Below, one piece after another: positions 23,897 to 46,971 of a stretch of DNA of 48,311 nt (position 1 is the stretch's first letter; the number at the start of each line of letters is the position of its first letter). The stretch comes from Dimargaris cristalligena (Eukaryota): assembly GCA_003614675.1 (NCBI GenBank), contig ML002279.1, forward strand, positions 1-48,311. The letters run 5' to 3'. The notes beneath the pieces are model-generated. The model was not told the DNA's origin and searched no databases. It saw only the letters and a list, made by a program, of their open reading frames with translations. The translations under genes were made by a program, and so were the position numbers.

Positions 23897-25846
23897 TTTT
23901 ATATATTTATAGTATATAAATAAAATATGGTTCACTGCTGTTTAATAAAATCAGCATACTAAAGACCTGCTACTACATTAATCGTAAAAACAATACCACT
24001 ATTCACTTTCCTGCATCAGCAACCAGTTAAAGTGAAGTGGAGAAATCCAAAATAAAAAAACATAACTAATGGAGCTTGTAGAACAAGGTGAAGGGTAATG
24101 TTACATTTAATAACTGCGGCTTATTTTTTAAACATTGTTTAAGACTTACAAGTCAGAATCAGCCAAATATACCCCCTCGTCTGTATTATACAGAGGCAAT
24201 AATTAGATTAGGGCACCAATAAATAAGACGGTACAAAATAAAAGACCATAGCCCATTCGACGTAGAGAAATTTGATAATAGTACTTGAAAACCAGACTAA
24301 AAAAGGCGGGCTATTGAAATAGCTAAGCGAACAAGTGCCAAAGCATTACAGAAGCCTACAGTAGTAGCACTTCGGCGACTAATAATAGCATATTGCTATA
24401 GTATCGGCCCAAAAATGGAATGTTAGTATTGTACAGCCATGCAACCATGGGGACAATAGACTGATAAGAGTAGCTGTATAATCAAGAATGTAGTAGATAA
24501 GAAAATCTGGGATTACTGATAGTTTCTTGGACCAACATAACAATCTTTGTTTAAAAACACGGGGGTCCCCCTGGTACAATACTATGGAAGGAGTACGTGA
24601 AGCCTGGTTATAGATTCAATGTGGCTGATTCTTGGCAAGGATTTCAAATGGTATTCATCACTGCTATTGACATGACCGAAATTATCAAGATGATGTGATT
24701 TACTAATCCATAGACGAGGCATGTAAAATATGGATAATGTCCCATAAAGGACAGGCCGCAGTCTCCAAAAGAATTGCAGACTTGCCAGGAATTAGCTTCC
24801 TTTTTGAAAACTTCACAATTTCAATCCTGATAGTTAACAAAGGGCATGGTGAAGATATAAGACATTTTCGGGCCTGTTCAGTCTATCCATTATGAATCCG
24901 CCTATTGTTATCATGCCCTTTCTTTGGTTAAGCAACACTGACCTAGCCCACTGGGGTCACAAAGTTAGAATTTCCAACAGTGCACCACTAATGATTTTTT
25001 ATAATAAAAGCGTGTATAAAAGGTACTGCTTCTCCCCACATTTATTCAATAGTTTTTTTTTATCCAAATACTCTATGATAGCAATGCTAAACTCGTATAT
25101 TCTGGCAATCATTCCTTATAACCCCATAGGCAACCGGGGGCCACATTCTGCAGTATTGCAGACACCCAATAACTCTACCTTCTCCCACCAAAAAAAAGGG
25201 GGCATAAGTCCCACAAGAGATCTTGGAGGGATTTCCCTAACTTTACGTGGTCAGCCCCTCATCTCCCTCAAGAGAGTGGCCCCCCCCTCCCCCATCTGAC
25301 CCAGAGTGAAATACCAGGGATCACTTGTGATGGTGGAGGGTTTCTATTCTTTGGAATATATGCAGTATGTTATTAGTATTACATGTATTTTGATTAATAG
25401 GTTTTTTTTATGAGGAGCTTCGAACTTTTTATACTAATTTGATATTTTTTAGTGGAATGTTTCTCATTTTTCCAGTTTATACCAACTAGTATTAAGTAGT
25501 ATTGGAAACCGATTGCTAATTGCTGATTTTACACCAGTCATCCAAGCAACAGACAAAAGCTTGGTGGCTGAGTTCATCAATTAATACATGGTGGCGGAAA
25601 TGAGCTTGGCTTTATTCACTAGTAATTTTGTCTCTTGAATAGATGGCAGCACCTAGCTCTGGTCGAATTTAAAATGAGTTTGGAACCACAAGTGGACTCA
25701 TTTTTACTCATACTTTAATAATATCTCTATGCCCCAATGTTGATTGAAATCACAATCCATGGGTTATTATAAACAACTCAAATGCTTTTCAATTAACCCA
25801 AAACAATGGGCTTTTCTCTTTTATTAATAAACTTCAGTTCAGTACA

Positions 25847-26433
25847 TGTCACCCAGGTTAGCCACTCTTAGTCCATCAAGAGTCCCAAGGATAGGCTTCT
25901 AACAGTAGACAGGGCTCAGGCTCAACTAAGTGGGTCATAGCATTAGGTTCGGGGCACAGTACTAACTAAATAAAGGTTACTAGGTGCAGGTATAAGTGAG
26001 GGATATGCAGTGGGCATACTTACTAGTCAATACAAGGGGGGTGAGCATATATAGAGTTTATTGGGATAAGCTAAGGGGGGTAAGAATAAGCTAAGGAATT
26101 GAACTAGTCCCAATGGGGCCCAGTTATATATATGCAGGGGTGACTCCAGAGGGAGGCTCCTAAAGAAGGATACTACTAAGTCTAAGATAAGGTAAAATAG
26201 GCCAACCGGATGGCTGTGAGGACTTGGAAGATTCTGCAGGTAGCTGGAAGAGTCTTCAGATCAGCACTGGAGTAATTAGTGCAAACTAAGGAGTCTGGAA
26301 GGGGAATAGTTATATGATATAGGGTGATCCCATAGTACTGGGGGCAACCATGGGAAGGTTAATATAGTGCTATAAGGCCTAATAGGGACAGACAGCATGG
26401 TGTCCAGATTAAGTCAGAATAGAAGATCTGACA
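25847..26433 (-). mobile_element. Solo LTR, copy A (587 bp)
   Basis: Termini TGTCA...TGACA, flanked by a perfect 5-bp TSD GTACA (25842-25846 and 26434-26438). Homologous over its length to the inverted copy at 26789-27354. TATA and AATAAA read on the minus strand. Confidence 0.85.
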
Positions 26434-26788
26434 GTACATCTATATTTTAGTTTTTATATTGACTGGATATTGAGTACACACCTAATTTACTGTATATCAG
26501 TATATATATTCTCACTTTTATTGAGTTTTTTTTATTATTTTGAGAGCAAATATGGCAGCACAGAATAGGGCATGTTGCTATTAATGCAATTAGGGGCTGT
26601 TGTAAGGAATTATAATCAGTTCAGTTGGGTAGGCCCAAGAATATATGGCACTGTGGTAAGGTGGACTGTCCCCCTATAGCCACACTTATTTTATTATTAT
26701 TATTACTATTATGCAGGGTATGAAGTGGCCTTTTTTTCTGGTATAACCAGTTTTTTTCCCTTCCCCTTTAACCCATTCTTTCCATATA

Positions 26789-27354
26789 TGTTGCCCCTCC
26801 TAATCCAACCTAATCCATCTGCTAATGATTGCCAACATAGCAGGCTGTATAGCACCATATTGTACCCCCAGTCCTAATGGGGCCGGACATCATATATATC
26901 ATCTTACCGACCGGACCCCCCCAGGAGTTCACACTACTTACTCCTGGGTGATCTTAGTGTCTTCCAGTTCCCATGGAAGCCTCCGCTCGTACGAGGACCA
27001 CCCGGCCCTCCCTATCATTATCTTAGTTATGTAGTTTCCCCTTGGGACCTCCCTTGGAGTAGTCCCCTGCATATATATAACCGGGCCCCCCATGGGGACC
27101 AGTTAATACTTTAGCTTATTCCTACCCCCCTTAGTTTACCCTCAATAAACTCTATATACGCTCACCCCCTCATACTGACTAGTAAGTGTGCATCAGTGCA
27201 CGTCCCCTGCATACACATTGAACACTTGCTTTATTGGGTTAGTACAGCCTGCCCTAATGCTAGCAGCCCGCTTGGCTGTGTCAATGCCCCACCTACCATT
27301 AGAAGCCTATCCCCGAGACTCTTGATGGACTAAGAGTAGTTAATTTGGGTGACA
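26789..27354 (+). mobile_element. Solo LTR, copy B (566 bp), same family as copy A
   Basis: TG...TGACA termini with near-TSD ATATA/ATATG. TATATAA at ~27074-27080 and AATAAA at 27144-27149. The reverse complement aligns to 25847-26433 (e.g. CTCTTAGTCCATCAAGAGTC, GATAGGCTTCTAA, TTATATATATGCAGGGG). Confidence 0.8.
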
Positions 27355-28974
27355 ATATGAATTTTCCCTTTAATTTTTATATATTCCTATTAGTTAATCC
27401 ACCCTTTTCATATAATTGGGTATGCATATTTATGCATAATTATTAGTGGCTCTTTAGTTTTATTCCTATCCTTTATTTTATTGGTTTTACTATGTGAATT
27501 CTTATTTTTCCTGTAATTGGTTATGCAGGTTCACTGCAGGCTTATTAGTTTTAATAATTCTCTGCCTTATACAGAGAATGGCTTGGTATTTTTTACTATA
27601 GAGATAAAGGTCTTGGCATTTTTTTAGATTGAATATGCACCATTGATGCACTCAATTGGGCCATGCATACGGGTGATCAGCACACACATTGGTATGTATA
27701 TATTTGCATATAAGGGATAACTTTTCCCCCTCTTTCTTTCTATATGTCAATTTCTTTGTATCAATTTTTGGGTACCAATTTTCCTCTATCTTTTTCTTTA
27801 CAATAAAACTACCTTTACCATTACTTTGGATTACTTAGATTTATATACCTTTGAAAGTTGTGGTTATAAGGAAATGGTCCTTTTGAGCTTCCAAATTGGT
27901 ATTATTACTACTCGGTTTAAACTGTTTTTTTTGATTTAAAAGTATTTTGTATTGAATTTTTAATTAAGTGACAAACCAGTTCTCCTGGAGAAGCCACCCT
28001 GCCCTTTTGATATATTTTTGTTGTTCATTTTAGTGGCTTAACACCACCACACTGTGATAGTGCTACCATCAATATCTTCATACAGGATACAGGTGGCCTA
28101 AAAAGCAAATTTATTACATGTTCTTATGCACCAAAGTTACAGGATATTTATTATACCAGCTATATCTATGGTATGGCCATGGGGTTTGGTTGTGTTCAAC
28201 TTAAACTCATTGAATGGCTGCTATCAGGTAGGAAACTACCACCACTGGGATCATTTAGTGTGCTAAAGTAACTAAGACCTAATCCAATATATATCAATCA
28301 ATTATTTAGTACAGTAACATATTACCTGAATTACCATTACTCTTGGCAATAACCCACTTACTCTGGTTGAATCAAAACCTGAGTTTATTAGTATGGCCCC
28401 AGGTGGTAATGGTCAGTGATTTAGTGTCATGCCTGGTTAATTTAAACTCTAAGAATAGCCAGCCATACAAGTAAAAACCCATACCAATAGATGGGTAAAT
28501 TAACATTTACTATTATAGAAATATATCCCCATTATCCTACTGTGTTTTATTTCCATTATTATATTACCCATATTATCTAGTTACTGATTCATATTTATTA
28601 GTCATCATTATTCTTCCCCTGCCCCTTGAGTTTGGATATAACCCCAGCTGTTTCCCCCCACAGCTTGCTCTTTAGCTTGTAACTTCTCTATTGTTGGTCT
28701 TATTCTGATATTTATCCTAATAAACTTATTCCTGTCCTTTGAAGTCCTGTCCATCATCTGGTACCTGGCCTTAATACCAGCCCATCATAACATTTAGGGA
28801 CAACTATCAAGATACTGTGTAGTTGGGAATGGAGTAAAGGCACTTATTTCTGGTTATCCCATCAGATGTTCAACATCTCTGATCAAATACCTATATTGGA
28901 CCACCCATTAGGTGTCCCGAAATTTATATCACTGCCCTGCCTGGACAGACTCTCCATTACCCGGAGCCATCTAC

Positions 28975-29118
28975 ATATGGGAGAGATTCAGCTAGGCTGT
29001 ATAAGAAAGAATCTGCTGGACAAGGTAAATGTTACTGGTTGAAAATAAATATCTCACCTGTTTTCCTATCCATATATCATATAAATTATTATATAGCTAG
29101 GCCACATTTAACCCATAT
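28975..29118. mobile_element. MITE copy 4
   Basis: ATATGGGAGAGATTCAGCTAGGCTGTATAA...TTATATAGCTAGGCCACATTTAACCCATAT. Confidence 0.75.
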
Positions 29119-29664
29119 GGTCAGATTGGATTTCATCTGCATATTAGCATTGGTTCCTAGTGGATTGTTGATTAGTCTAAAATTATAAGTCATTTTATCA
29201 TATAAAAATCCAATAGGTAGCACATTCAAATATAATCAATAGTCCAGTATCCATGACTATTCCGGGCTGCCCATTACCATACTACATCATGCCTGGAATA
29301 ATCAGGTAAGCCTTGGAGGGAAAATGTAGAAGGAGCTCAATACGGTAATATTTATTAAGTATAGTGCTAAAAATTTACTTTGGGGCAGAGCTAAGGGGGT
29401 GTTCCTGGCAGTGTCAGGTATAAAGTATACAGTGCCTAATATTTTAAACTGACTATTGGAGTCATAAAAAGAGTGTATACCAAGTTGCTAAACATTCATT
29501 GGATCATGATAACGAACACAGACCCCCGCAGGCCAGTTGACTATGGCTTAGTAGTAGCTAGAGCGACCAGAATAGCCAGTGGCAGAATCGGGACTATGGG
29601 GATGAGATGAGGATCCTTGGGTAAATGAGTTCGTTGAAAACAACCGTGTAGAGCATTTATGGAC

Positions 29665-29925
29665 TTATCCATAGCCACCAAAGGTGCTTCCCCCTTTCTT
29701 TTCATTGAGACTGCTGTCCCTTCCATTGTCAGGTAGACTGCTCGTAGAGCTGCTATGCCTCAGGGACCAATACATGCTGTTCCAATGAGGGGGTTCAGTG
29801 GAGACATTTGAAGATCCAGTATCATAAATCAAACTCCTGGAGCTGTCATGGGCGCTATAGGGGCCTGCACAGGCAACAGCCAGCAGGGAAGTGAGGACCA
29901 GGGGAATGGCAACCAGAAACTTCAT
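29665..29925 (-). CDS. Small secreted Ser-rich protein (86 aa), possibly a pseudogene whose frame originally ran to 29548
   Basis: ATG 29925 begins a classic signal peptide MKFLVAIPLVLTSLLAVACA|GP. A TATAAA lies ~160 nt upstream (~30085-30090, minus strand). The same frame continues for 38 Ser-rich codons past the TAA at 29665-29667. Confidence 0.55.
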   Translation of the reverse strand: MKFLVAIPLVLTSLLAVACAGPYSAHDSSRSLIYDTGSSNVSTEPPHWNSMYWSLRHSSSTSSLPDNGRDSSLNEKKGGSTFGGYG

Positions 29926-32220
29926 GATGATGGACAGTATTAGGAGGAATTGGGGGAAGGAAGGGGGGTGTAGTGTATTTGGCATATTAGGATTAGTATT
30001 AAAATAAGATAGTGGTCAAGTGGGGGGCAGTAGAGGAGGTTATTGTGATTGATGTTGAGTTTTGGGAAACGAGAAAGGGTGTGGTATTTATAGGTGTTTT
30101 AAAAGTGCCTGGACTGATTGCAGTCTCTTTGGAGTGGTCAGTCGATGCTAAGGCATGGTGGAGGTGGAGAATTTGGCAGAGTTAATGAATACCCCTATGT
30201 TCATGGTAAAGCCTCGAGTAAACACCTAGGGCATAGTCCGATTAAAGTTGGAGCAACCAGCCAACCAGCAATCTTGACCATAGGGGTTGGAATCCAGTCC
30301 CAGGCTACTGAGAGGAGTCTGGTTCCACTGCCCCTGTCCAAAATGGAACAGTGACTATCACTGGTGGGCTCCGGCAGGAAGATTAAAGAGGCAAAGACCC
30401 CATGGTCTATGTATTAATATGGACAGCCCTAAATAATCAGCCGAGTGCCCCGGTATTTTGGAATGGACCCTTCATGTTTCCATTGGTCTATTGGCTAGTT
30501 TGCCTCAGCCAATTTTTTATTTTTAGACTAGGCGCTATGTAATACTCATGTACCACCATTGAGTAAGGGTCTAATTGATTACCCATGACTGTCCCCTTCC
30601 CTTTTACCAATGCTTTAGGTCCATTTTTTCTGGATAAAGGGTGGGTCGGGATCCTAGATGGGGGGGGGCTAATGGAATGGGTAACTGTTCTCTGTTTCTA
30701 TTGGGAGGTATGGGTGTGAGGCTTTGTCCACCATCATTGCCTATTTCGGCTCATCTACTTCTAGGCGGACCTTTACTACTACCCTGACTATTTGATAACA
30801 CCAATGGCCTCATATATATACCATTTACTACCTTTAGTTAAGGATAACACTACTAACTGAAAATAGACATACTATCTATTATCATATACCCATATGAGAA
30901 AAATGATGCACCACTAGCCAAAGTTAAGTGATTGAATCTAGGGCAGGGTTTAATGATACTTGGACGATATCCCCCCACCCCCATGGCCATTAGGAATACG
31001 CTCTAGTCCTAATGTAATATCAATCACAATTCCTAATGAACCCGATGAGCCACTCAGCTATTCTACCAATAGGCTCTCATCACAATTGGTAATGGAAATG
31101 GCTTATCAAAATATCTATTTATTTGCCAATCGTTCTTACAAATACAAGGGGTATACCATAATCATTCGTATGCATTCCTATTTACTGGATCATAGGCTAG
31201 TAGATGTACCAATTAGTATCATAGATAACTAAACATAGTACTTCTTAGCCTTCAACATTGAGCTGATCTAGTCTTGATATACAGCTACCATAGTCCCTCA
31301 TCGTTTTCCTTAAGTTCACTGCGTTTCAAATCTAGTCCCCATGTGACGGCCAGGCACCTATATTACCATTGCATCAGACCTGTTTTTAGCCACACTCATT
31401 AGTTGGTCTACGAAACCGGGCGATAGCTGCTTGAGTAGCCGTCACCCCTCAATAAATTGAAAAATTGTAAAAATCCAGGCACCCCCAGCAATTATTGACG
31501 ACGCCTTACATGTTATATTTGCCCTAAAGACCATCTAAGTGTCCTTTAAAACTCAGGGCCTGGCTCGAGTAGTTTATGATTGTATACCATCCGATGGGCC
31601 TCCTCATCATGAATCTGGACAATATATAGCGCAGTTAACTTACTTCCGACTAGCAGTTATAAAAAACCAAACAGTTGCTACGCGCTGTAGCGTGTCCAGG
31701 TCAACACCAACCAATTCGCGGTAAGGCTTCGACATACAAAACTACATTTTGATGTAGACAGGCATAGTCTGGCTCTTCGATTAAAGTGCCCGGAAACTAT
31801 ATTGATGTCCCACCCATGGGCCAGGCCACATTTACTGCGTAGATTCAACAAGTGGGAAGTTCTTTTTATTTTTAGGTAGAAGAAAATGAAACTCGCTAGC
31901 AGTATTATATTACCATGGTATGCATTAGCTGGAGTAGCAAGTACATCCCCGAAAATCCTACACACGGGGCATGTATTCTGTACTACTAGATAAATTTACA
32001 GAAAAGAGGATAGATACGCCAGGGATTGGCAAGGGGCCCTCCTAGCAATGCCCGAGGGGGTAAAATATATTTGATAATATTCCCTATAAAAAAAACAGCA
32101 ATGGCTGGAAGTTCAGATTACCTGCTCGAATATGGCCATGGGCCTTTACAATCCAGTGATTGCCGGGCATTATACGCAGCGAAGCGAAGGGACCACAGGG
32201 GGGAAATAGCCCCCCGACCC

Positions 32221-32922
32221 CTAGTTGGTGGAGTTACCATTCTGGGTGTACAGCAGAGTGGAGTTGGAGGCATCCTGACTTGGTGGGCTCATCACGTCCC
32301 GAATGCTAAACTGGCCGTATTTGGAACCCATGGTGACGGCCGTTTGTAGAAGCTCGAGGAAGACATTATCCGCCACCATATTGAGCTGACGGTCATCGCG
32401 GCAGATGAAATTAACGCAACTCTTAAGCAGAGCTTGGCGCATTTCGTAAGTGAGCGTCGGAGCCGCTCCCGCCAGTACGGCCAGACTGAGCCCGTCCTCA
32501 TCGCCGGCAACGTTGATTTTGCAGCGGTGCTGGTTCATGGACGTTGTACTATTCTCTTTACCCCGGTAACGGTACACCTTGTGACAGAACCGACAGGCGG
32601 CGAAAGGGAGGTACTCATCGGTGGCGGTTTCGCGGACGAAACAGAACTTGTCCCAGCATTGGGAGGTCAGTGAAGGTGGGGGCGGGTGCAGCGTGAATTC
32701 GCCGCTGATGATTTTTTCGCGGATTTGGGTTTTGGTCAGTTCGGTGGTGGAGAAATCAACGCCCGCGTCGTTGAGGGCCTCCAGGAGCTGGATTGCCCGG
32801 GCCGTTGCGGGGGTGTTATCCACCGTGACTTCACCCGTCGTGGCCAACAGGGACGAGCCATCGTCGCTAGTCGGAAAGGCGACAATGTCGGCGGCGGATC
32901 CCGGAAACTCGGAGGTGTCCAT
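32221..32922 (-). CDS. BED zinc-finger + Hermes/hAT-type dimerization/DNA-binding domain protein, no DDE domain (probable domesticated hAT transposase fragment), ~233 aa
   Basis: Start at ATG 32922 (MDTSEFPG); the upstream part of the 309-aa ORF looks like intron/UTR, with an acceptor-like CTTATCGCAG ending at 32932. BED finger CWDKF...AACRFCHKVYRY...TTSMNQHRC is followed by ALLKSCVNFICRDDRQLNMVADNVFLELLQTAVTMGSKYG...DVMSPP, which resembles the Hermes transposase N-terminal domain. Confidence 0.8.
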   Translation of the reverse strand: MDTSEFPGSAADIVAFPTSDDGSSLLATTGEVTVDNTPATARAIQLLEALNDAGVDFSTTELTKTQIREKIISGEFTLHPPPPSLTSQCWDKFCFVRETATDEYLPFAACRFCHKVYRYRGKENSTTSMNQHRCKINVAGDEDGLSLAVLAGAAPTLTYEMRQALLKSCVNFICRDDRQLNMVADNVFLELLQTAVTMGSKYGQFSIRDVMSPPSQDASNSTLLYTQNGNSTN

Positions 32923-33880
32923 GGAGGGTAACTGCGATAAGTAAGGGAAAGTGTGAGCGCGTAAGTAGCAGTGAATCGAATATCCAATGCAATAATTGTA
33001 TGGCCAATAAATGCCCGAAAATGGAGGCACGATCCACGGAATGCACTGGTGGTTAAAGGGGGCGTTGGTGGAAGGCGGAAGGTCTGAGTGACGCAGGAAA
33101 GACGCGAGGAATGGGAGGAAAATGGAGGTGATGGACGCAGGAAATGCCACGAAATAGTCAAATTGTTAAGTCTTCTAAGCGAGAATATTCGAATGAGAAG
33201 GGACACCCAACCCTCTGCAATAACGGCTGCCTTCTACCAGGGTGGAAGCCGCGGGTGGAATGAAGGGATACTATTGGATGTATTGTTTCCCATTGGTATG
33301 GTGGTTGGTATAGAAAGGGGGGGAGCTAGTGTGTGGTGCAACGAATAAGATGGATGGAGGGGGTTTACATAGGAGGGTCAGATGCGCAACACGCATGGGG
33401 GGCCCCTCTTTTTTGATGTAAGCAGGGTATTATATCAGCCATATTGGTGTGCCTAAACTAACATAGTGGAAAGGGTCGTTATGGAGCGGCGGTATATTCG
33501 CCCCGGTTAGAGATATGTTGGTGGCTGTGGAGCTATTTAATCTCTGAGATGCACTGGCATATAGTCATCATTTCCCCCTCCATAAAAGCAGAGTTTTGGA
33601 CCAGAGCTCGCTTCGAGGTACAGTCGGGGGGAGCATTAGCGGTTATTATAATGGCCCCCAGGTTATAAAATTGGTTACACACCACGCCACAGAGGGCCAG
33701 CTGGTCCAATGGTAGGTTGCTTGCGATTGTGGTGATTCTTCTGTGATAGTCGCCATATTTTGAAGTTTTCTCAGTAAATAAACAGCCTATTCAGACTGTT
33801 ATAGTTAGAGCCACAGTAGTCTTCCTTTTATCCTTTCACTTCTGATATTAATGGCGACATAAGCGACTGCTATAGAAGGC

Positions 33881-40300: not shown

Positions 40301-42978
40301 AATATGTTTTTCTATATATACGGTAATAGTTGTGAGCAATGAAAACGACCTTGGGGGCAGTGTTGTGTGGACGCGAGGCCACTGGAGTAGACGTTCGGCG
40401 GGGATTGATAAGTGGGCCCAATTATCCCCAAGAAAAAATCTGACTAGTATGAATTACGTACACACTCAACCAAGCCCCTTGAAGTCATACAGTGGAAGCC
40501 AGTGAACCTACCCGGTCTAACGTGCCTCCTTCTCTGTCCTTCCCTCGTTTCAATATATAAGGATATTAAAAAGGGAATGATCAAACGGCTGTATCGGGAT
40601 GGAGATTGGATGAATGGGCAAAATAAGGGGGAGGGGAGAGGGCGGACAGTGGTAGTAGTAGTAGTGGGCAGTGGCTTCAAAGCCGTCGTTTTCTAGCCAA
40701 ACAAAATGACTGTATTGGAAATGGAGGAAAGGGGATTTCGAATAGGCAGCGTAGCGTGCACCCACACCCTCTCCCACTGGCTGGAGTCATCGGGTGAGCC
40801 CGTAACGATAGTTTGGGCCCGAACAAGCTACACCGGGGTCGAAAAAAAAGGAGGGGGAGGGGATGCCTGTTGTGTACTGGTTGAATACGAATTTTGTTGG
40901 GAAACACGGCGCTTAGCCCACCCAGTCCCTATTCTCCCCCTTAGACCACCTCCCCTTCCACACTCTCCCTTCACCCCACCGCCAACTACGCCCCGATGCG
41001 AGGACTATTTAAATTTCGCTGATTTCCTGGCCTTCCGCCCATTTAAACACCGCCGTTCTCTTCCAAGTCGCCAACCTTCATCAGTCCGCATCCTTCTCAT
41101 TACGCCCTCGTTTCCCGCTACTCCATAACTATTCGTCAATTGGTATACTTAAGTCGGCCATGGCCCCCTCCTAGGTCTGCCTAAATTTACCAATCCGTCT
41201 CTCCCTTTTTTTCTGCTGCTCATCACTATATTTAAGGATATTTATTCGCCTATAGCGAACCCCTAGTAGGCTTCGTTCTATTTATTACCACCCCATTTTT
41301 TAGCATTGCTTAATTTTGGCTTCGCCGTTTTCCGACTTGAAGGATACTGGTTTCAACACCATTGTTTGTTAATGTTGTTGGCCCCAGTCCACCTTTAGCT
41401 GTTGCAACCCAGCCCTGGTATTTGATTCTATTTTTTTCATCCCACAGGTGCTTGCCGCAGTGGCGGAAAACTCTGCGTGCTCTTTCGACTATATTTTAAT
41501 TATTTATTACCAGCCCGACATCGCGCCATTTCAACCACTTTGTAATCTACCTCGACCCACCATCGGTTGGTGAATTGTACAAAATCGATACTCTCTTGGA
41601 TTCCGTTTACGCATTTCTATATTTATATCCCGGTGGCTTTATTAATTAATTTATTCAAGGAAGAACCGCGTGGCTAATCAGTTCTCGAATTTCATATTCT
41701 TAGGTAAGTTACTGATGGCATATTTTAATGGATTTTATTCATTAAAATTCTCGTTTGGATCACCTCACCCTTTTCACGCTCTCCAATTCTTGCTGAAGGG
41801 GAGGGGGACAGGTTCAATGTGGGCCTGGAAGGACATTTTTCCTCTTATGGACGCAATGTCCATTTTTATTTTCTCTTCCCTTCTTATTTTTTTTGAAAAA
41901 TATTTTTATATACATTGCACGTGTGGTGAGAGGGAGAAGATTGGCAGCCCAGTCGCCTTCTCGGTGGCTAGACAGTGCCGGTATCCGGACTAGTCGATCC
42001 TTTCCATTCATTGGATTATTGGGGGGACTCAGTTTCTCTCCCCAATGCCATATCGGACTATTGGAGGGGAGTGCATCCTCCGGTTTAATCCGGAAGGTCG
42101 CACTAGTTATTTGCGGATGGCACTATCATCGGCAGGTGTGTTTCATATAGTCTCTGACCTGGCCTGGGCTTTTCTCGTGCTCTCTTTCTTTATCTCCGGA
42201 GATTAGTTGGGTGTTTGGAGGGGGAGCGAGTGCCAGCGGAGGCCATGGAATTAGGCTAAGGGGTGGTGGTTATTCTGGGGTGTGTACCCCACCTACTCTA
42301 CTTGGTGATGGAAAAGGTTGATGTAGCTGCATCGAGCTCCATTTCCCCCGCCTCTATTGTGACTATTTAGTGATTGACGTGAAGGATATACATTCGGGTT
42401 ATAGGAGCACTGTGCCCAGCACGGCCTCTACAGAGACTGCCTCCTCATTTGCTTACCTCCCCCGCCTATTTCCACACTAGTCTATTTTGCGAATTTCTCC
42501 CACTTACACCTTTCTTCATCACTTGGGTTCTGTTGGTGCCCTGTCTCTCGCTGGGCTGCCCTAACCCATGTTCTTTGAGGATCTAATCCTTACACCCCTC
42601 CAACTCTCTTAAACTTGCCGGTATCCAATTTCGTAACGGAATATGGCATTTTAAATGGTTCATCCTCAGGAAATTTCCCCGCCATATAACCTGATTTATA
42701 AAGGGCAGTGGGCCCAGCTTCGGCCATCCTATTGCTGCTTATGTGTTCGTTGTTTAGCACCGGATAACTAATCTTTTTGGTCATATTTATACATATTTTT
42801 TCTTGGATATTCTCCCTATACATATTTTCTGTGCAACCCGGCTTCTCGCTCCTTCGTGTCACCGGTCCGCTCGCTTTCCTTTCCGCTATCCCTCTCTCAA
42901 CTTCTTGCGCCCCTCTACCGCTTGATCCCCACCCCATATCATCCCTCCTCCTCAACATATATCAATATCCTATTTACC

Positions 42979-45900
42979 ATGACTAGCGGCCGCTCTTCCC
43001 GTTACTCTTTCCAGCCCGGTCAGTTTCCCTTTCCGCCCGAATACCCCGTGCCGTCGCCACCACCAGTACACGTCGAGCACCCCCCCGCCAAAATGATGAC
43101 CAACAGCCTGTTTCCCGGTATGGCCCAGTCCAAACCCGACTTTGAGAACCATGATCCTACCGTCGAGGTACCGTACGCCTTTTCCAGCTACACCGAGGCC
43201 ATGAAAAAGTGCACCCGCGATAACCGTGAATTCAAAGTCATCGTCCTCGAAAACCAGATGGAAATCATGCTTATCAACGACCCCGAGGCCGTCAACGCCT
43301 GCGGTGCCCTCAATCTGCTGGCCGGTAGTGGCCTCGACCCGCCGGGCCTCCACGGTCTGGCCAATTTAACCCTCAAATGGATGATGCGGGCGTCCAAGGC
43401 GTATCCCACTGACGGTCAAATCCACAATTTCATCAAGGAACACCGGGGTATCATTTACTCACACACCACACTCAAGACCACCGAAATCTCATTTGGTTTA
43501 CCCGCGGAGGAACTCAAGGAAACCCTCGAGCGGTTGGCCAGCCACCTGAGCGACCCCCTGTTCCAGCGTCAGGCCGCCGAAAAGGTGGTCCACGAAATTG
43601 ACCTCGACCACCGGAAATTCCTCAAGCAGGAGAATATGAGCATCAAGTTACTCGAGCGTAACTTCTTCAAACCGCAAGACAAGATGACCCACTTCAAAAC
43701 CGGAAATCGGGAAACTCTGCTGGTCAACCCACCTAAACTCGGTATCGACATCCACCAGGAGGCCGTCAAGTTCTTTGACTGCTACTATTCGTCTAATTTG
43801 ATGAAGATGGTGATTCTGGGTAACCAGGGTCTGCCCACATTGACCGAATGGGCCATTAATACCTTTTCCACCATCTACAACAAGATCGTGCCCGTGCCCC
43901 AGCTCGAGCGGATTCCCCTGCCCGCCGATTTTAACCGGCAAATTCTCGTCAAGTCCCACCAGCACACCCGTTCTCTGGTGCTGCTGTTCCCCCTGTTCTG
44001 CCAGGCCAATGGGCTCGCCACCGATGTGCCCGATGCACCCCTGCCAGGGGAGAGCCCCAACGCCAGCGGTAAGGACCTCTCCAACGGCGGTGTGGGGTCG
44101 GACAACGGTCACTACCCACACCACCACAACCATCACTCATCGGCCATGAGCGATTCGGATAAGAACTCGGTGCTCGAAAGCCAATCCGACCTCAAGTCGG
44201 GTCGCGGCGAAGAGGACATGTACGGTAAACCACGCAGTCGGCGCAGCAGTCTCAGCAGTGAAAGTATTCGCAGTCAGCTCAGTACCTCCACCACCGCGGC
44301 CCCTTCGTCCTATGCGAACGGGTCTATCCACGGCCGGATGCCTCCGATGCCCCCGAACATGATGAACCCCATGGGCTTCACGCCCCAGCAGATGGCGGCC
44401 ATGAATATGAATATGAATATGAACATGTACAATATGCAGCAGATGGCCGCCGCCATGGGCGGTATTAACCTCAACGGACACGGTGGGACGTCGCCCACGG
44501 GGGCGGGTAACGCCACCAATGGTGGAGCCCAGGGGATGTTCAACTTTCCCGGTATGCCTAATCCCTACATGATGCAGTCCGGCGCGGGCGGTTTCATGGG
44601 CAACCCTGCTTATAACCCTTACGCCTTTAATCCCAGCATGGCCATGGCCATGGGGATGAATATGGCCTTCATGGGCGGTTACGGCCACCCCGGCATGGCC
44701 GCTGCCGGAGGGGGGGCTCAGCGGGGTTATAATCCCCACATGGCGAACGGTGGCCACCACCCCCACATGATGAACGGGGCTGGATATCCGGGCATGGGTG
44801 GATTCATGAACCACTCGGGTATGCTGCAGGACGTAAGTGTGGGCCCGACCGCGGCCGGTTACCACTCCTCTACCCCCCAACTGGATATGCACGAGGAGTG
44901 GGCGCCCGCCCTCGCCTACATTCGCCACCTGCTGGAACTGCGCACCCCTGGTTCGATCATTCATTACCTCAACAAGAAGGGTTGGGGCACGTACATTCAT
45001 ACTTCGGATATTATGGATATGGACTGTGATACCCCCTTCTTTAAGCTGACCATCAGCCTAACCAAGGTCGGTTTCGAAGCCTACGAAGAGGTGGTCCGCG
45101 CGGTGTTCCAGTACATGTACATGATCCGCCGGGCCGGTATCCAGCACTGGCTGTATGACGAAATTCGTTCGATTGCGGCCATCAAGTTCTTCATGCGGGC
45201 CAAGTACAACGATTTCGATTGTCCCCGTTTCTCCGACATGATGGCCCGCGACGACCTGGCCCCCAACATGTACGTCTGCGACCACGCCATGTACTATCAG
45301 TGTAATCCTGACGTGATCCACCAGGCCCTGGCCTGCTTCCACCCCAAGAACTTCGCCGTGTTGGTCGTGAGCCGGGACATTGAGTCTCCCGGTATGTCGC
45401 GCGAAATGTACTACGAAACCAAGTACCAGGTCACGTCGCTGCCGCTGACCCTCCAGATGGCCTTGGCCAACCTGAAGCGCAACGACAAGTTCTTCCTGCC
45501 CTCCAAGAATCCCTACGTGATTGAGCGCTGGGAGAACCTGGAGTCCTCTGGTCAGCCCGACAAGTCCATCTCGATTCTGTCCGATACGCCCCAGAGCCGC
45601 TGCTGGTACTTCCGTACGAACCACTTTACGCCACCCCGCAGTAACATCCACATTGCCCTGCAAAGCCCCCTGTCGTTCAAGACGCCCGCCTCCAGTGTGC
45701 GTACTAAGATCATGATCAAGTTATTGCAGGAGCGTTGTAAGAAGCTCATCGACTCGTCCAGTTCCGCCGGGGCCGCTTCCATGTTCTATTCCATCGACGC
45801 CGGTCCGGATGGTATCCAAATCTCGCTCGAGGGCTTCAACGAGAAGAACGACCTGATGCTGACCAACGTCTTCACCGCGCTCCACGACATCAAGGTGGAC

Positions 45901-46971
45901 CCCTACCGGCTGAAGTTCTTTATTGACGAGTACATTCTGGATCTCAACTGCGATTCATCCCAGAACTCGGAGTGCCCGACCATGTTCATCGAGAGCGCGC
46001 TCAAGGGTTACGTGTGGCCCCACGACGTGCAGCTCAATGAACTGCGCACCATCACCGTGAGCGACATTAGTCAGTTCATCCAGAACTACCTCAACCGTAC
46101 CCACGTCGAGATGTTCGTCACCGGTAACGCGACCGAGACCGAAGCTTTGGACTACCTCCACCTGGCCGAACGGTACATGAAGCGCACTTCGGTGCTTAAG
46201 GTTGAGCGGTACACCAACACGTCGATGCATATTCCCCTAGGCGGTCGGTTCCTCTACCGCCTGCGGACCAAGTCGCAGCTGGCCGCCCTTCCGTCGCCCA
46301 CGGGCATGGGTGGAATGGGAAACCCCACCGGACTACCGTCATCCAACTCATCGGACGAGCCCTCCCGGATCGCCTACTTCGTCCAAGTCGGTGACTGTTC
46401 CGAGGCGCGCCTCCGGGTCTACCAGGACCTGGTGGCCCGGGTGATCCACGACAAGTGTCTCCTATCCTTCATGGAACAGCTCAACCTCACCCAGATGGAA
46501 TGCCAGGTCCTGTGCAAGCCTAACCTTCCGCTTGGTATGGTGTTCTCGGCGGCCGGCCGCAAGGACCCTATGTTCCTGGAAAGCGGCATGGAACTGTGCC
46601 TGCAGACCGTGAAGCGGCACCTGTTGGACATGTCGCCCATTGTGCTGGAGGAACACGTAGAGAAGCTGCGTCAGGAGAAACTGACCCAGGCCAAGGGTGC
46701 CACTTCGACCCAGCTGTGGCACGGTATCATCTACGAATGCCCCTCCATCTACCAGGCCGAGGAGCTCGACATTCTGGCTTCCATCAACAAATCGGGACTC
46801 ATGGAATTCTTCAAGCGGTACTTCGATAAGAATACCCGTTACCTCACGAAACTCTCCGTTCATGTGTCAGCCCACGACAAGATGCCCATGATGGACGGTC
46901 AAGTGTTCGTCAAGGACGTCAAGATCCTTAAGACACTGCTGCAGAACTCGGAAATGCCCCGGTTGAACTAA
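42979..46971 (+). CDS. Insulinase family (M16A, IDE/Ste23/Axl1-like) protein, predicted catalytically inactive, with a large low-complexity insertion, ~1330 aa
   Basis: Intronless ORF, first ATG at 42979 (MTSGRSS). M16 hallmarks: DNREFKVIVLENQMEIMLINDP, GSGLDPPGLHGLA, FKTGNRETL, FFDCYYSSNLMKMVILG, HLLELRTPGSIIHYL, FFLPSKNPYV, HVEMFVTGN, KLSVHV. The HxxEH position reads NLTLK. Confidence 0.92.
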   Translation: MTSGRSSRYSFQPGQFPFPPEYPVPSPPPVHVEHPPAKMMTNSLFPGMAQSKPDFENHDPTVEVPYAFSSYTEAMKKCTRDNREFKVIVLENQMEIMLINDPEAVNACGALNLLAGSGLDPPGLHGLANLTLKWMMRASKAYPTDGQIHNFIKEHRGIIYSHTTLKTTEISFGLPAEELKETLERLASHLSDPLFQRQAAEKVVHEIDLDHRKFLKQENMSIKLLERNFFKPQDKMTHFKTGNRETLLVNPPKLGIDIHQEAVKFFDCYYSSNLMKMVILGNQGLPTLTEWAINTFSTIYNKIVPVPQLERIPLPADFNRQILVKSHQHTRSLVLLFPLFCQANGLATDVPDAPLPGESPNASGKDLSNGGVGSDNGHYPHHHNHHSSAMSDSDKNSVLESQSDLKSGRGEEDMYGKPRSRRSSLSSESIRSQLSTSTTAAPSSYANGSIHGRMPPMPPNMMNPMGFTPQQMAAMNMNMNMNMYNMQQMAAAMGGINLNGHGGTSPTGAGNATNGGAQGMFNFPGMPNPYMMQSGAGGFMGNPAYNPYAFNPSMAMAMGMNMAFMGGYGHPGMAAAGGGAQRGYNPHMANGGHHPHMMNGAGYPGMGGFMNHSGMLQDVSVGPTAAGYHSSTPQLDMHEEWAPALAYIRHLLELRTPGSIIHYLNKKGWGTYIHTSDIMDMDCDTPFFKLTISLTKVGFEAYEEVVRAVFQYMYMIRRAGIQHWLYDEIRSIAAIKFFMRAKYNDFDCPRFSDMMARDDLAPNMYVCDHAMYYQCNPDVIHQALACFHPKNFAVLVVSRDIESPGMSREMYYETKYQVTSLPLTLQMALANLKRNDKFFLPSKNPYVIERWENLESSGQPDKSISILSDTPQSRCWYFRTNHFTPPRSNIHIALQSPLSFKTPASSVRTKIMIKLLQERCKKLIDSSSSAGAASMFYSIDAGPDGIQISLEGFNEKNDLMLTNVFTALHDIKVDPYRLKFFIDEYILDLNCDSSQNSECPTMFIESALKGYVWPHDVQLNELRTITVSDISQFIQNYLNRTHVEMFVTGNATETEALDYLHLAERYMKRTSVLKVERYTNTSMHIPLGGRFLYRLRTKSQLAALPSPTGMGGMGNPTGLPSSNSSDEPSRIAYFVQVGDCSEARLRVYQDLVARVIHDKCLLSFMEQLNLTQMECQVLCKPNLPLGMVFSAAGRKDPMFLESGMELCLQTVKRHLLDMSPIVLEEHVEKLRQEKLTQAKGATSTQLWHGIIYECPSIYQAEELDILASINKSGLMEFFKRYFDKNTRYLTKLSVHVSAHDKMPMMDGQVFVKDVKILKTLLQNSEMPRLN
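44401..44424 (+). repeat. Coding (ATGAAY)4 repeat encoding MNMNMNMN
   Basis: atgaatatgaatatgaatatgaac within the M16 insertion. Confidence 0.9.

What the first reader, a model, noticed from the sequence alone, without database searches (positions are those of the whole stretch)
43340..46510. Intact but catalytically dead insulinase (M16A pseudopeptidase)
Seen: the zinc motif position reads GLA-NLTLK-WMMRASKAYP (NLTLK at 43363-43377). Established: IDE/pitrilysin have GLxHFCEHMLFLGTKKYP here. Other functional residues also appear lost by manual alignment to IDE: REVNAVDSEH becomes KVVHEIDLDH (third Zn ligand E>D), NAFT becomes YSHT, exosite HLIGHEG becomes HLLELRT, and LRTKEQLGY becomes SFMEQLNL (substrate-binding Arg/Tyr gone). 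The 4-kb ORF is nonetheless uninterrupted with host-like GC3-rich codons. Inference: a maintained non-proteolytic clamshell scaffold, chaperone or sensor.
Basis: partly seen in the sequence, partly recalled or inferred. Interest (0 to 1): 0.75.

Follow-up and report, generated by a model that had tools for sequence, protein, structure and literature searches.

The report
Dead insulin-degrading-enzyme copy in a mycoparasitic fungus
This fungal gene is a duplicated copy of insulin-degrading enzyme that has lost every residue needed to cut peptides yet is better conserved than its working sister gene, so it is a maintained pseudoenzyme of a known kind whose new job is still unknown.

Summary
Window 42979-46971 (+) is one uninterrupted 1330-codon ORF of Dimargaris cristalligena. 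It matches human insulin-degrading enzyme (IDE) at E 1.8e-91. At the zinc motif it reads NLTLK (43363-43377) instead of HxxEH.

The catalytic and substrate-holding positions are also changed: the NAxT motif, the E...E helix and the R/Y pair, plus the exosite.

The same losses occur in all five orthologues found, all from the order Dimargaritales. A separate paralogue with every motif intact exists in D. cristalligena, Tieghemiomyces and Dispira.

On 870 shared columns the dead copies are 61-73% identical between genera. The active copies are 45-56% identical. So the dead copy is not decaying.

An ortholog model keeps the whole IDE clamshell (TM 0.76). It is coding, but one public gene model spliced it out.

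Reading: a duplicated IDE/Ste23 that became a non-proteolytic binding protein. Its function is untested. No ortholog DNA or RNA reads were available, so dN/dS and expression remain open. M16 pseudopeptidases are already known, so this is a new member of a known kind and of moderate interest.

The parts
42979..46971 (+). Whole coding sequence of the dead IDE-like protein (1330 aa plus stop). The true start is uncertain: a mechanical GTG start lies at 42856, and a second possible Met (residue 39) lies at 43093.
   Evidence: The orthologue N-termini are poorly conserved (residues 1-59 are 12% identical).
43156..43995 (+). Domain 1 (aa 60-339), the former catalytic domain. It is among the best conserved parts.
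   Evidence: Pfam PF00675 at E 1e-9. IDE alignment covers 75-339. Mean identity among the 5 orthologues is 73.6%. The boundaries are approximate and come from the alignment.
43363..43377 (+). NLTLK in place of the HxxEH zinc-binding and catalytic motif
43456..43467 (+). YSHT in place of the conserved NA[FY]T
   Evidence: 13 of 13 non-pseudo rows have NAxT and 5 of 5 pseudo rows have YSH[TV]. Also.
43582..43611 (+). KVVHEIDLDH in place of the R-E-x5-S-E-H helix. The first Glu becomes V203 and the third zinc ligand Glu becomes D210.
   Evidence: The Dispira orthologues keep Glu at the second position.
43996..44853 (+). Lineage-specific insert (aa 340-625) at the junction of domains 1 and 2. It is disordered, Gly/Met/Ser/Ala/Asn/Pro-rich and contains 12% Met. 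The 870-nt stretch 44026-44895 is treated as a GT..AG intron in one public gene model.
   Evidence: The equivalent segment of the ortholog model has pLDDT below 50.
44236..44256 (+). SRRSSLS, the only well-conserved motif inside the insert (S-R-[RH]-S-S-x-S in 5 of 5 orthologues). It is a candidate basophilic-kinase phosphorylation cluster; that is an inference.
44914..45528 (+). Domain 2 (aa 646-850), the best conserved domain
   Evidence: Mean identity is 76.0%. Boundaries are approximate.
44926..44946 (+). HLLELRT in place of the exosite stretch HL[IV]GHEG
   Evidence: 11 of 13 non-pseudo rows have G[HY]E, and 5 of 5 pseudo rows have ELR.
45529..46248 (+). Domain 3 (aa 851-1090)
   Evidence: Pfam PF16187 at E 1.1e-41 covers 752-999. 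Mean identity is 58.7%. Boundaries are approximate.
46249..46968 (+). Domain 4 (aa 1091-1330), the most diverged domain. It includes a species-specific low-complexity loop around aa 1096-1130.
   Evidence: The IDE alignment runs to residue 1300. There is no PF22456 hit, unlike the active paralogue. Mean identity is 53.2%.
46465..46494 (+). SFMEQLNLTQ in place of the R/Y pair stretch (xLRTKEQLGY). Arg becomes M1165 and Tyr becomes Q1172.

Best explanation
The gene encodes a pseudopeptidase: a full-length, four-domain M16A (IDE/Ste23-type) clamshell that can no longer bind the catalytic zinc or hold a substrate in the usual way.

Origin. It arose by duplication of the fungal IDE/Ste23 gene, on the lineage leading to the mycoparasitic order Dimargaritales or at the base of Kickxellomycotina. 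The timing is not resolved. One copy stayed a protease. This copy went through a burst of change (long stem branch) in which it did two things:
- It lost HxxEH, the NAxT motif, both helix glutamates and the R/Y pair, and changed the exosite.
- It acquired a roughly 210-290-residue disordered, methionine-rich insert between domains 1 and 2.

Since then it has been held under stronger constraint than the active copy, above all in domains 1 and 2.

What is shown: homology, the motif losses in all orthologues, the existence of an intact paralogue, higher protein conservation than that paralogue, retention of the fold, and the coding nature and disorder of the insert.

What is inferred:
- It has no peptidase activity (about 0.9).
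- It works by binding partners through the N-terminal half, with the insert as a regulatory or assembly handle (about 0.5).
- It carries a catalysis-independent function that active IDEs already have, that is, subfunctionalisation (about 0.2-0.3).
For: Homology:
- Pfam finds PF00675, PF05193 and PF16187.
- Human IDE matches at E 1.8e-91 over residues 75-339 and 646-1300, and E. coli protease III at 2.1e-45.

Motif losses:
- They are seen in 5 of 5 orthologues: D. cristalligena, D. xerosporica, Tieghemiomyces parasiticus, Dispira parvispora and D. simplex.
- 141 of 150 rows of a broad alignment keep H..EH.
- Of 118 columns that are at least 85% conserved in 145 other M16A rows, 49 are kept in all five copies and 69 are changed. 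The kept ones are mostly Gly, Pro and aromatic residues. The changed ones include all the catalytic positions.

Active paralogues:
- They are P0033/P0285 (D. cristalligena), P0289 and P0041 (T. parasiticus) and P0290 (Dispira simplex).
- Their HxxEH, NAxT, E...E and R/Y motifs are intact. The exosite G[HY]E is kept in three of the four and reads RRE in P0041.

Constraint:
- On 870 gap-free columns the dead copies are 73.3, 63.2 and 60.9% identical. The active copies are 56.1/51.0, 47.5 and 50.5/45.4% for the same species pairs.
- Tree paths are 0.33 and 0.58 for the dead copies against 0.85 and 1.24 for the active ones. The stem is 2.17 against 0.63.
- Two D. cristalligena assemblies differ only inside the insert.

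Fold:
- The alignment-based model of the Dispira simplex orthologue has pLDDT 76.9 and pTM 0.73, with 570 residues at 90 or more.
- Its best PDB match is human IDE at E 3.9e-69, with TM 0.76 over the target.

Insert:
- There are 0 stops in frame against 13 and 10 in the other sense frames. Only 1 of 20000 shuffles is stop-free. GC3 is 0.745 against 0.785 in the folded parts.
- It sits at the same place in 5 of 5 orthologues.
- Met is 8.0-12.1% in the insert against 3.0-4.4% elsewhere.

Precedents for non-proteolytic roles of this fold (passages read in both papers):
- The Axl1 metal-site mutants H68A and E71A still complement the bud-site defect (PMC2141777).
- S. pombe Iph1 and human IDE act in the ER-stress response independently of catalysis (PMC3691139, abstract and passages).
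Against: - No activity, zinc-binding or expression data exist here. No RNA run could be listed, so expression is unknown.
- dN/dS could not be computed because no ortholog DNA was reachable. The selection argument rests on protein identity and branch lengths only.
- Orthology of the active copies across species is assumed from a congruent topology. T. parasiticus has two active copies. Active copies of D. xerosporica and Dispira parvispora were not among the 120 rows listed.
- The Dispira orthologues keep Glu at the third-ligand position, and T. parasiticus reads NLTHH. The site is therefore not identical across the clade, although no orthologue has the first His or the catalytic Glu.
- The structure was modelled for the orthologue (58% identical), not for the window's own protein. 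No coordinates were available to inspect the former metal site.
- Nothing found here points to a particular partner or pathway.
Confidence: 0.8

Rival explanations
1. It is a regulatory or structural partner of the active IDE paralogue. On this view it forms a mixed dimer through the C-terminal halves and tunes the enzyme, as the inactive alpha subunit does for mitochondrial processing peptidase.
For: - An active paralogue coexists with the dead copy in at least three of the five species.
- Pseudoenzymes often regulate their active relatives. Alpha-MPP is the M16 example (PMC11266112 passages; PMC12731061 passages).
- That IDE is a dimer is stated in the abstract listing of 10.1101/2024.12.30.630732.
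Against: - The C-terminal domains, which form the IDE dimer contact (recalled, not tested here), are the least conserved parts of the dead copy: 58.7 and 53.2% against 73.6 and 76.0% for domains 1 and 2.
- The two paralogues evolve at very different rates. This does not suggest a tightly co-evolving pair.
Confidence: 0.12
2. It is a condensate-forming or redox- and phospho-regulated scaffold. On this view the methionine-rich disordered insert drives reversible self-assembly and the dead clamshell acts as the client-binding module.
For: - The insert is disordered in the model and poor in charged residues, at 7.7-9.5% K+R+D+E.
- Its Met enrichment is conserved in 5 of 5 orthologues although its sequence is only 23.7% identical.
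- An S-R-[RH]-S-S-x-S motif is conserved.
- The Met-rich low-complexity domain of yeast Pbp1 phase-separates under redox control and restrains TORC1 (PMC8394241 passages).
Against: - The argument rests on composition alone.
- There is no sequence similarity to Pbp1, and no experiment.
- Low-complexity inserts are common in fungal proteins and can be nearly neutral. Two strains already differ by a 22-residue indel.
Confidence: 0.12
3. It is still a hydrolase and uses a different metal site or different catalytic residues.
For: - Asp210 and His211 remain at the end of the former ligand helix, and the Dispira orthologues keep Glu there.
- Bovine core I, with a modified motif (YFVEH), has low activity after detergent treatment (PMC12731061 passage).
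Against: - Both His ligands and the catalytic Glu are gone in the window's protein (N129, L132, K133).
- The NAxT, exosite and R/Y substrate-holding elements are gone as well.
- Nearby His205 and Glu206 are not conserved among the orthologues.
- An E-to-D change at the catalytic Glu alone abolishes the activity of S. pombe Iph1 (PMC3691139 passage).
Confidence: 0.03
4. It is a recently inactivated gene on its way to decay, or an artefact of assembly or annotation.
For: - One public gene model of this very contig is partial and removes 870 nt as an intron (P0002).
- No expression data are available.
Against: - The frame is open for 1330 codons with host-like GC3.
- The same losses are shared by five species in three genera, with 57-67% full-length identity.
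- The folded parts are identical in two D. cristalligena assemblies.
- It is more conserved than the active paralogue.
Confidence: 0.02

Closest known systems
Insulin-degrading enzyme / yeast Ste23 / E. coli pitrilysin (active M16A peptidases)
   Same: - It has the same four-domain single-chain clamshell.
- The sequence match to human IDE is E 1.8e-91.
- The model matches IDE at TM 0.76.
- It branches with the Kickxellomycotina IDE/Ste23 genes in the tree.
   Different: - It has no HxxEH, no NAxT, neither helix Glu, a changed exosite and no R/Y pair.
- It carries a roughly 290-residue disordered insert between domains 1 and 2.
- Domain 4 is no longer recognised by PF22456.
- It is only 24.5% identical to the active paralogue of the same species.
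Non-proteolytic functions of active fungal M16A proteins: S. cerevisiae Axl1 (axial budding) and S. pombe Iph1 (ER-stress / TORC1-linked response)
   Same: Both show that this fold does useful work without catalysis in fungi:
- Axl1 metal-site mutants complement the bud-site defect (PMC2141777).
- Inactive Iph1 and inactive human IDE complement iph1 deletion (PMC3691139).
   Different: - Those proteins keep an intact active site and also act as proteases. Here the protease function is gone and is carried by a separate gene.
- No orthology to Axl1 was tested, because Axl1 was not in the trees.
- The functional link is by analogy only.
M16 pseudopeptidases: alpha-MPP, cytochrome bc1 core proteins, and the Cryptosporidium insulinase-like proteins without HXXEH
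   Same: They are members of the same clan that lost the zinc motif but are retained:
- Alpha-MPP reads HxxDR (PMC11266112).
- Yeast core I lacks the motif (PMC12731061).
- Only 10 of 22 C. parvum M16 proteins have HXXEH (PMC8092296).
   Different: - Alpha-MPP and the core proteins are half-size M16B subunits that pair with a partner and keep a substrate-binding element (the glycine-rich loop).
- This is a full-length M16A chain in which the catalytic motifs of domain 1 and the R/Y pair of domain 4 are lost.
- The Cryptosporidium proteins are secretory-pathway paralogues of a large expansion. No signal peptide is evident here by eye at the N-terminus; this was not tested with a tool.
Ant IDE-like proteins (Harpegnathos saltator P0145, Dinoponera quadriceps P0013)
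   Same: They are an independent animal lineage of IDE-like proteins without an intact HxxEH. P0145 reads HLCQH and P0013 has no H..EH anywhere.
   Different: - They are of separate origin, within the animal IDE clade.
- P0145 keeps both His ligands and changes only the catalytic Glu.

Membership tests
Peptidase family M16, subfamily A (by descent) | Four homologous alpha/beta domains in one chain of about 1000 residues, forming a clamshell | tested here: met
   - Pfam finds PF00675, PF05193 and PF16187.
- Human IDE aligns over residues 75-339 and 646-1300.
- The ortholog model matches IDE at TM 0.76 and E 3.9e-69.
Peptidase family M16, subfamily A (as an active peptidase) | HxxEH zinc-binding and catalytic motif in domain 1 | tested here: not met
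   The window reads NLTLK at 43363-43377. All 5 orthologues lack the motif, while 141 of 150 aligned rows have it.
Peptidase family M16, subfamily A (as an active peptidase) | Downstream glutamates of the ligand helix (E...E; the second is the third zinc ligand) | tested here: not met
   The window has V203 and D210. Both Dispira orthologues keep Glu at the second position only.
Peptidase family M16, subfamily A (as an active peptidase) | R/Y pair in domain 4, which completes the active site and binds substrate (PMC12731061) | tested here: not met
   The window has M1165 and Q1172. Tyr is lost in 5 of 5 orthologues, and Arg is kept only in Dispira simplex.
Peptidase family M16, subfamily A (as an active peptidase) | Measured zinc content and peptide cleavage | not testable with these tools
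   This needs purified protein.
Pseudoenzyme (maintained inactive homologue) | Catalytic residues lost, but the gene is kept intact across species under purifying selection | tested here: met
   - The ORF is intact.
- There are five orthologues in three genera.
- Core identity is 61-73% against 45-56% for the active paralogue, and crown branches are shorter.
- dN/dS itself was not computed because no ortholog DNA was available.
Pseudoenzyme (maintained inactive homologue) | The gene is expressed | not testable with these tools
   No RNA run could be listed for this stretch. This is no evidence either way.
Alpha-MPP-like partner subunit | Stable complex with an active M16 partner | tested here: inconclusive
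   A single complex prediction of the two C-terminal halves gave no verdict. It counts neither for nor against.

The most novel reading that the evidence does not exclude
The dead copy is a natural separation-of-function allele of insulin-degrading enzyme.

After duplication, the conserved catalysis-independent role of IDE went to this copy. That role is the one that inactive Iph1 and inactive human IDE can supply in fission yeast, and it is linked to ER stress and TORC1. The copy was then coupled to a methionine-rich, redox- and phosphorylation-sensitive disordered domain.

If so, domains 1 and 2 are the most constrained parts and would mark the long-sought surface for IDE's non-proteolytic function.
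Probability: 0.12. Interest if true: 0.65.

Novelty: new member of a known kind. Interest (0 to 1): 0.35.

Why it matters
IDE is studied mainly as a protease. Genetic work in yeasts, however, shows that it also acts without catalysis, and nobody knows through which surface.

A lineage in which the protease and a strongly conserved dead copy are separate genes offers a clean comparison. Residues kept in the dead copy are candidates for the non-proteolytic function. The gene could also be tested directly by complementing the fission-yeast iph1 deletion.

There is a practical point too. The public records call this protein "metalloprotease" or "M16 peptidase-like", and one model deletes 290 coding residues as an intron. 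Protease counts and gene models for these mycoparasites need correcting.

Beyond that, it is one more example of a common evolutionary outcome: a pseudoenzyme arising after duplication.

Tried and rejected
- **Whole-genome search.** The search of the window's own genome failed because no genome is held. The paralogue question was answered instead through protein searches and cluster names.
- **First attempt to find an active paralogue.** I queried with the Basidiobolus IDE. None of the best 120 rows came from Kickxellomycotina. The paralogue was found only after a tree pointed to unnamed representatives.
- **RNA evidence.** No RNA holder was listed for 42979-46971.
- **Single-sequence structure prediction.** The prediction for P0002 was useless (mean pLDDT 34.5) and was discarded.
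- **Oversized alignment.** A 150-row alignment was too large for the folding machine. A 70-row alignment was used instead.
- **Complex prediction.** I tested the C-terminal halves of the dead copy (860-1330) and the active paralogue (529-960). The result was "no answer", score 0.00, controls not run, and my alignments not used. It is no evidence either way.
- **Timing of the duplication.** The free tree puts the dead clade outside all Kickxellomycotina IDEs (SH-aLRT 83 and 87). A Dimargaritales-only duplication is not rejected (AU p 0.11, log-likelihood difference 3.5). The timing is left open.
- **Earlier findings of this scan.** Nothing was found for this genome or this sequence.
- **Neighbouring ORFs.** Those at 33.5-42.9 kb and at 47.06 kb gave no Pfam hit, so there is no informative gene context.
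- **Tandem repeats in the insert.** Only three short arrays were found, with scores 33-47. The insert is not a simple repeat expansion.
- **Literature.**
  - "Dimargaris" plus "M16" returned 0 papers.
  - "Dimargaris cristalligena" plus "peptidase" returned 8 papers, of which 6 were listed; no title or abstract start concerns this gene, and I searched the text of only one, the Kickxellomycotina genome paper, which has no hit for M16 or insulinase.
  - A six-term search listed 10 of 318 papers, and none of those 10 contains "Dimargaris".
Protease tables in the supplements of PMC9866270 may list this gene.

Full report
**What is there**

The window holds one uninterrupted reading frame on the + strand. 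It runs 42856..46971 from a GTG. From the first ATG at 42979 it gives 1330 residues (P0001).

Its GC3 is 0.771. Two other ORFs of the window have 0.759 and 0.714, while the whole window is 46.8% GC. The codon usage is therefore that of the host.

Pfam finds three M16 domains: PF00675 at 1e-9, PF05193 at 6.3e-15 and PF16187 at 1.1e-41. Against solved structures the best matches are human insulin-degrading enzyme (E 1.8e-91, two stretches, residues 75-339 and 646-1300) and E. coli protease III (2.1e-45).

The protein search names the organism. An identical partial model from a contig of exactly the window's length, and a full model from a second assembly, both belong to Dimargaris cristalligena. 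This is a haustorial mycoparasite of the order Dimargaritales, the earliest branch of Kickxellomycotina (PMC9866270 passages).

NLTLK lies at 43363-43377. It aligns without gaps to the HxxEH column of IDE.

- NA[FY]T becomes YSHT.
- The two helix glutamates become V203 and D210.
- The exosite stretch HL[IV]GHEG becomes HLLELRT.
- In the R/Y pair stretch, Arg becomes M1165 and Tyr becomes Q1172.

That HxxEH binds the metal and that the R/Y pair in domain 4 completes the active site is stated in the M16 review (PMC12731061 passages). The human residue numbers usually quoted for these positions are recalled, not taken from a call.

In a 150-row alignment of the family, 141 rows have H..EH in these columns. 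The 9 that do not are the five Dimargaritales proteins, three N-terminally incomplete rows and one ant protein reading HLCQH.

**It is not decaying**

Orthologues with the same losses exist in four more species:
- Tieghemiomyces parasiticus (NLTHH)
- Dimargaris xerosporica (NLTLK)
- Dispira parvispora (NLTQK)
- Dispira simplex (NLTQK)

An exhaustive HMMER search of 1.84 billion cluster representatives found nothing between these orthologues (1229 bits) and ordinary fungal IDEs (367 bits, 29% identity). Among sequenced organisms in that library, the dead lineage is therefore confined to Dimargaritales.

Of 118 alignment columns that are at least 85% conserved in 145 other M16A proteins, 49 are kept in all five dead copies. 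These are mostly Gly, Pro, Tyr, Phe and Leu. The other 69 are changed in at least one copy, and they include every catalytic position. This is the pattern expected when the fold is preserved and the chemistry is given up.

**There is an active paralogue**

A FastTree of 165 family members placed the dead clade on a very long stem, next to eleven unnamed representatives. Cluster look-up named them as Kickxellomycotina IDE/Ste23 proteins. One is [quoted passage not shown] (P0033, full-length P0285). Others come from Tieghemiomyces, Smittium, Coemansia and Dipsacomyces.

A search with P0285 added a second Tieghemiomyces copy and one from Dispira simplex. Active copies of D. xerosporica and Dispira parvispora were not among the 120 rows shown.

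In these four Dimargaritales proteins HxxEH, NAxT, the E...E helix and the R/Y pair are intact. Three of the four keep the exosite G[HY]E; P0041 reads RRE there. The genome thus has a working M16A enzyme beside the dead one.

**Relative constraint**

| Measure | Dead copies | Active copies |
|---|---|---|
| Identity on 870 gap-free columns, D. cristalligena vs Tieghemiomyces | 73.3% | 56.1 / 51.0% |
| Identity, D. cristalligena vs Dispira simplex | 63.2% | 47.5% |
| Identity, Tieghemiomyces vs Dispira simplex | 60.9% | 50.5 / 45.4% |
| Tree path, D. cristalligena to Tieghemiomyces | 0.33 | 0.85 |
| Tree path, D. cristalligena to Dispira simplex | 0.58 | 1.24 |
| Stem branch length | 2.17 | 0.63 |

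The tree is an IQ-TREE run with a site-heterogeneous model (34 rows, 970 columns).

The history is therefore a burst of change followed by constraint about twice as tight as on the enzyme.

Within the dead protein the mean identities by domain are as follows:
- Domain 1: 73.6%
- Domain 2: 76.0%
- Domain 3: 58.7%
- Domain 4: 53.2%
- Insert: 23.7%

The two D. cristalligena assemblies differ only by a 22-residue in-frame indel and one substitution, both inside the insert.

I could not compute dN/dS, because no ortholog DNA is reachable with these tools. No RNA run could be listed either.

**When the duplication happened is open**

The free tree puts the dead clade outside all Kickxellomycotina IDEs (SH-aLRT 83 and 87). 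This would mean an old duplication with loss in the other orders.

With a stem this long, the placement is suspect. The AU test does not reject a duplication within Dimargaritales (p 0.11).

**The insert**

Between the last strand of domain 1 and the start of domain 2 lies a segment that other M16A proteins lack. It covers about residues 340-625 and is followed by a conserved GYHxxTPQLD..WAPALAY lead-in to domain 2.

Evidence that it is coding:
- It has 0 in-frame stops, against 13 and 10 in the other sense frames.
- Only 1 of 20000 shuffles is stop-free.
- Its GC3 is 0.745, against 0.785 in the folded parts.

An insert sits at the same place in all five orthologues, with lengths of 207-280 residues as delimited. 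It is rich in Gly, Met, Ser, Ala, Asn and Pro. Met is 8.0-12.1% there against 3.0-4.4% in the rest of the protein, and charged residues are few.

Its only well-conserved motif is S-R-[RH]-S-S-x-S. This looks like a basophilic-kinase site, which is an inference.

The public model from this very contig (P0002) removes 44026-44895 as a GT..AG intron of 870 nt, exactly 290 codons. It also stops early. Because that removal deletes part of the conserved lead-in, I read it as a modelling artefact. Real alternative splicing of an in-frame "exitron" cannot be excluded without RNA data.

**Structure**

A single-sequence fold of P0002 failed (pLDDT 34.5).

With a 70-row alignment, I modelled the 1192-residue Dispira simplex orthologue, because the window's own protein exceeds the size limit. 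The model had mean pLDDT 76.9 and pTM 0.73, with 570 residues at 90 or more. The insert (303-522) was below 50.

Foldseek against the PDB returns human IDE first: E 3.9e-69, TM 0.76 normalised to the 955-residue target.

The clamshell is therefore kept and the insert is predicted to be disordered. No coordinates were available to inspect the former metal site. By sequence, no conserved set of replacement ligands is present.

**How it most likely works**

*Shown.* It is a full-length IDE homologue without the zinc or substrate-holding residues. It is retained under constraint beside an intact paralogue.

*Inferred.* It does not cleave peptides and acts by binding.

Two fungal precedents show that this fold works without catalysis:
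- Axl1 metal-site mutants still support axial budding (PMC2141777).
- S. pombe Iph1 acts in the ER-stress response independently of catalysis, and inactive human IDE can replace it (PMC3691139).

The simplest evolutionary reading is subfunctionalisation. The protease role stayed with one copy and a binding role went to the other. The N-terminal half is then the functional surface, and the insert is a regulatory or assembly handle.

The Met-rich composition recalls the Pbp1 low-complexity domain, a redox-controlled condensate former that restrains TORC1 (PMC8394241). This is an analogy from composition only.

A mixed dimer with the active paralogue is a reasonable rival. The one complex prediction I ran gave no verdict and says nothing either way.

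**Comparison with what is known, and novelty**

By descent the protein belongs to M16A. As a peptidase it fails the defining tests.

Inactive M16 members are well known:
- Alpha-MPP and the bc1 core proteins.
- 12 of the 22 C. parvum insulinase-like proteins lack HXXEH.
- Ant IDE-like proteins without an intact motif turned up in my own search.

The pseudopeptidase review I read lists only MPP for M16. I found no paper that mentions Dimargaris together with M16. This particular lineage therefore appears undescribed.

It is a new member of a known kind, made somewhat more interesting by three features:
- It is full-length.
- It is more constrained than its active sister.
- It carries a conserved disordered insert.

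Interest 0.35.

Noticed in passing
window 44026-44895: One public gene model of this contig (P0002) removes this 870-nt stretch as an intron. The stretch is in frame, free of stops and bounded by GT..AG. The model from another assembly (P0003) keeps it. It is probably a modelling artefact, but an alternatively spliced in-frame "exitron" is not excluded.
   Followed up: partly
window about 44458-44523 (P0001 residues 494-515): Two D. cristalligena assemblies differ by a 22-residue in-frame indel and one Gly/Ala change (residue 583). Both lie inside the insert. The 1024 residues outside residues 340-645 are identical.
   Followed up: yes
P0285 (active D. cristalligena paralogue), residues about 950-1162: The active IDE paralogue carries a roughly 200-residue C-terminal extension with a strongly acidic stretch. 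It also evolves unusually fast: only 43-51% identity between Dimargaritales genera, and 39.9% to the Basidiobolus IDE on core columns.
   Followed up: partly
P0145 (Harpegnathos saltator) and P0013 (Dinoponera quadriceps, 1835 aa): Ponerine ants have IDE-like proteins without an intact HxxEH. P0145 reads HLCQH, which is the natural equivalent of the laboratory Glu-to-Gln dead mutant. They sit on a long branch inside the animal IDE clade and represent an independent dead lineage.
   Followed up: partly
P0120 and P0320 (Coemansia reversa): Two M16A paralogues of Coemansia reversa each list a longest contig of the same length (388,421 bases), so they may lie on one contig. Several Mucoromycota and Glomeromycota also have two IDE paralogues each, so duplication of this gene is frequent in early-diverging fungi.
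   Followed up: no
P0014, P0161, P0162, P0189 (Phycomyces blakesleeanus): Full-length IDE-type proteins with HxxEH are named "ubiquinol-cytochrome c reductase core subunit 1/2" in the public records. This is probably a naming error carried over from the M16 clan.
   Followed up: no
window 13299-16097 (+): An uninterrupted 932-codon ORF encodes a phosphoinositide-specific phospholipase C (PI-PLC X at 1.4e-53, Y at 3.8e-26). It lies in the most GC-rich part of the window (0.53-0.60).
   Followed up: partly
window 24001-30000 and the window as a whole: Only 7 ORFs of 200 codons or more occur in 48 kb. Two of them are antisense frames inside the M16A gene. The stretch 24-30 kb is AT-rich (GC 0.38-0.40) and has no long ORF. 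The 4-kb intron-free M16A gene stands out against this background.
   Followed up: no
window 32221-33150 (-) and 22312-23238 (+): A 309-codon ORF has a weak BED zinc-finger match (E 0.0015, below Pfam's cut-off). A 308-codon ORF has an RMKL-like methyltransferase domain (2e-7).
   Followed up: no
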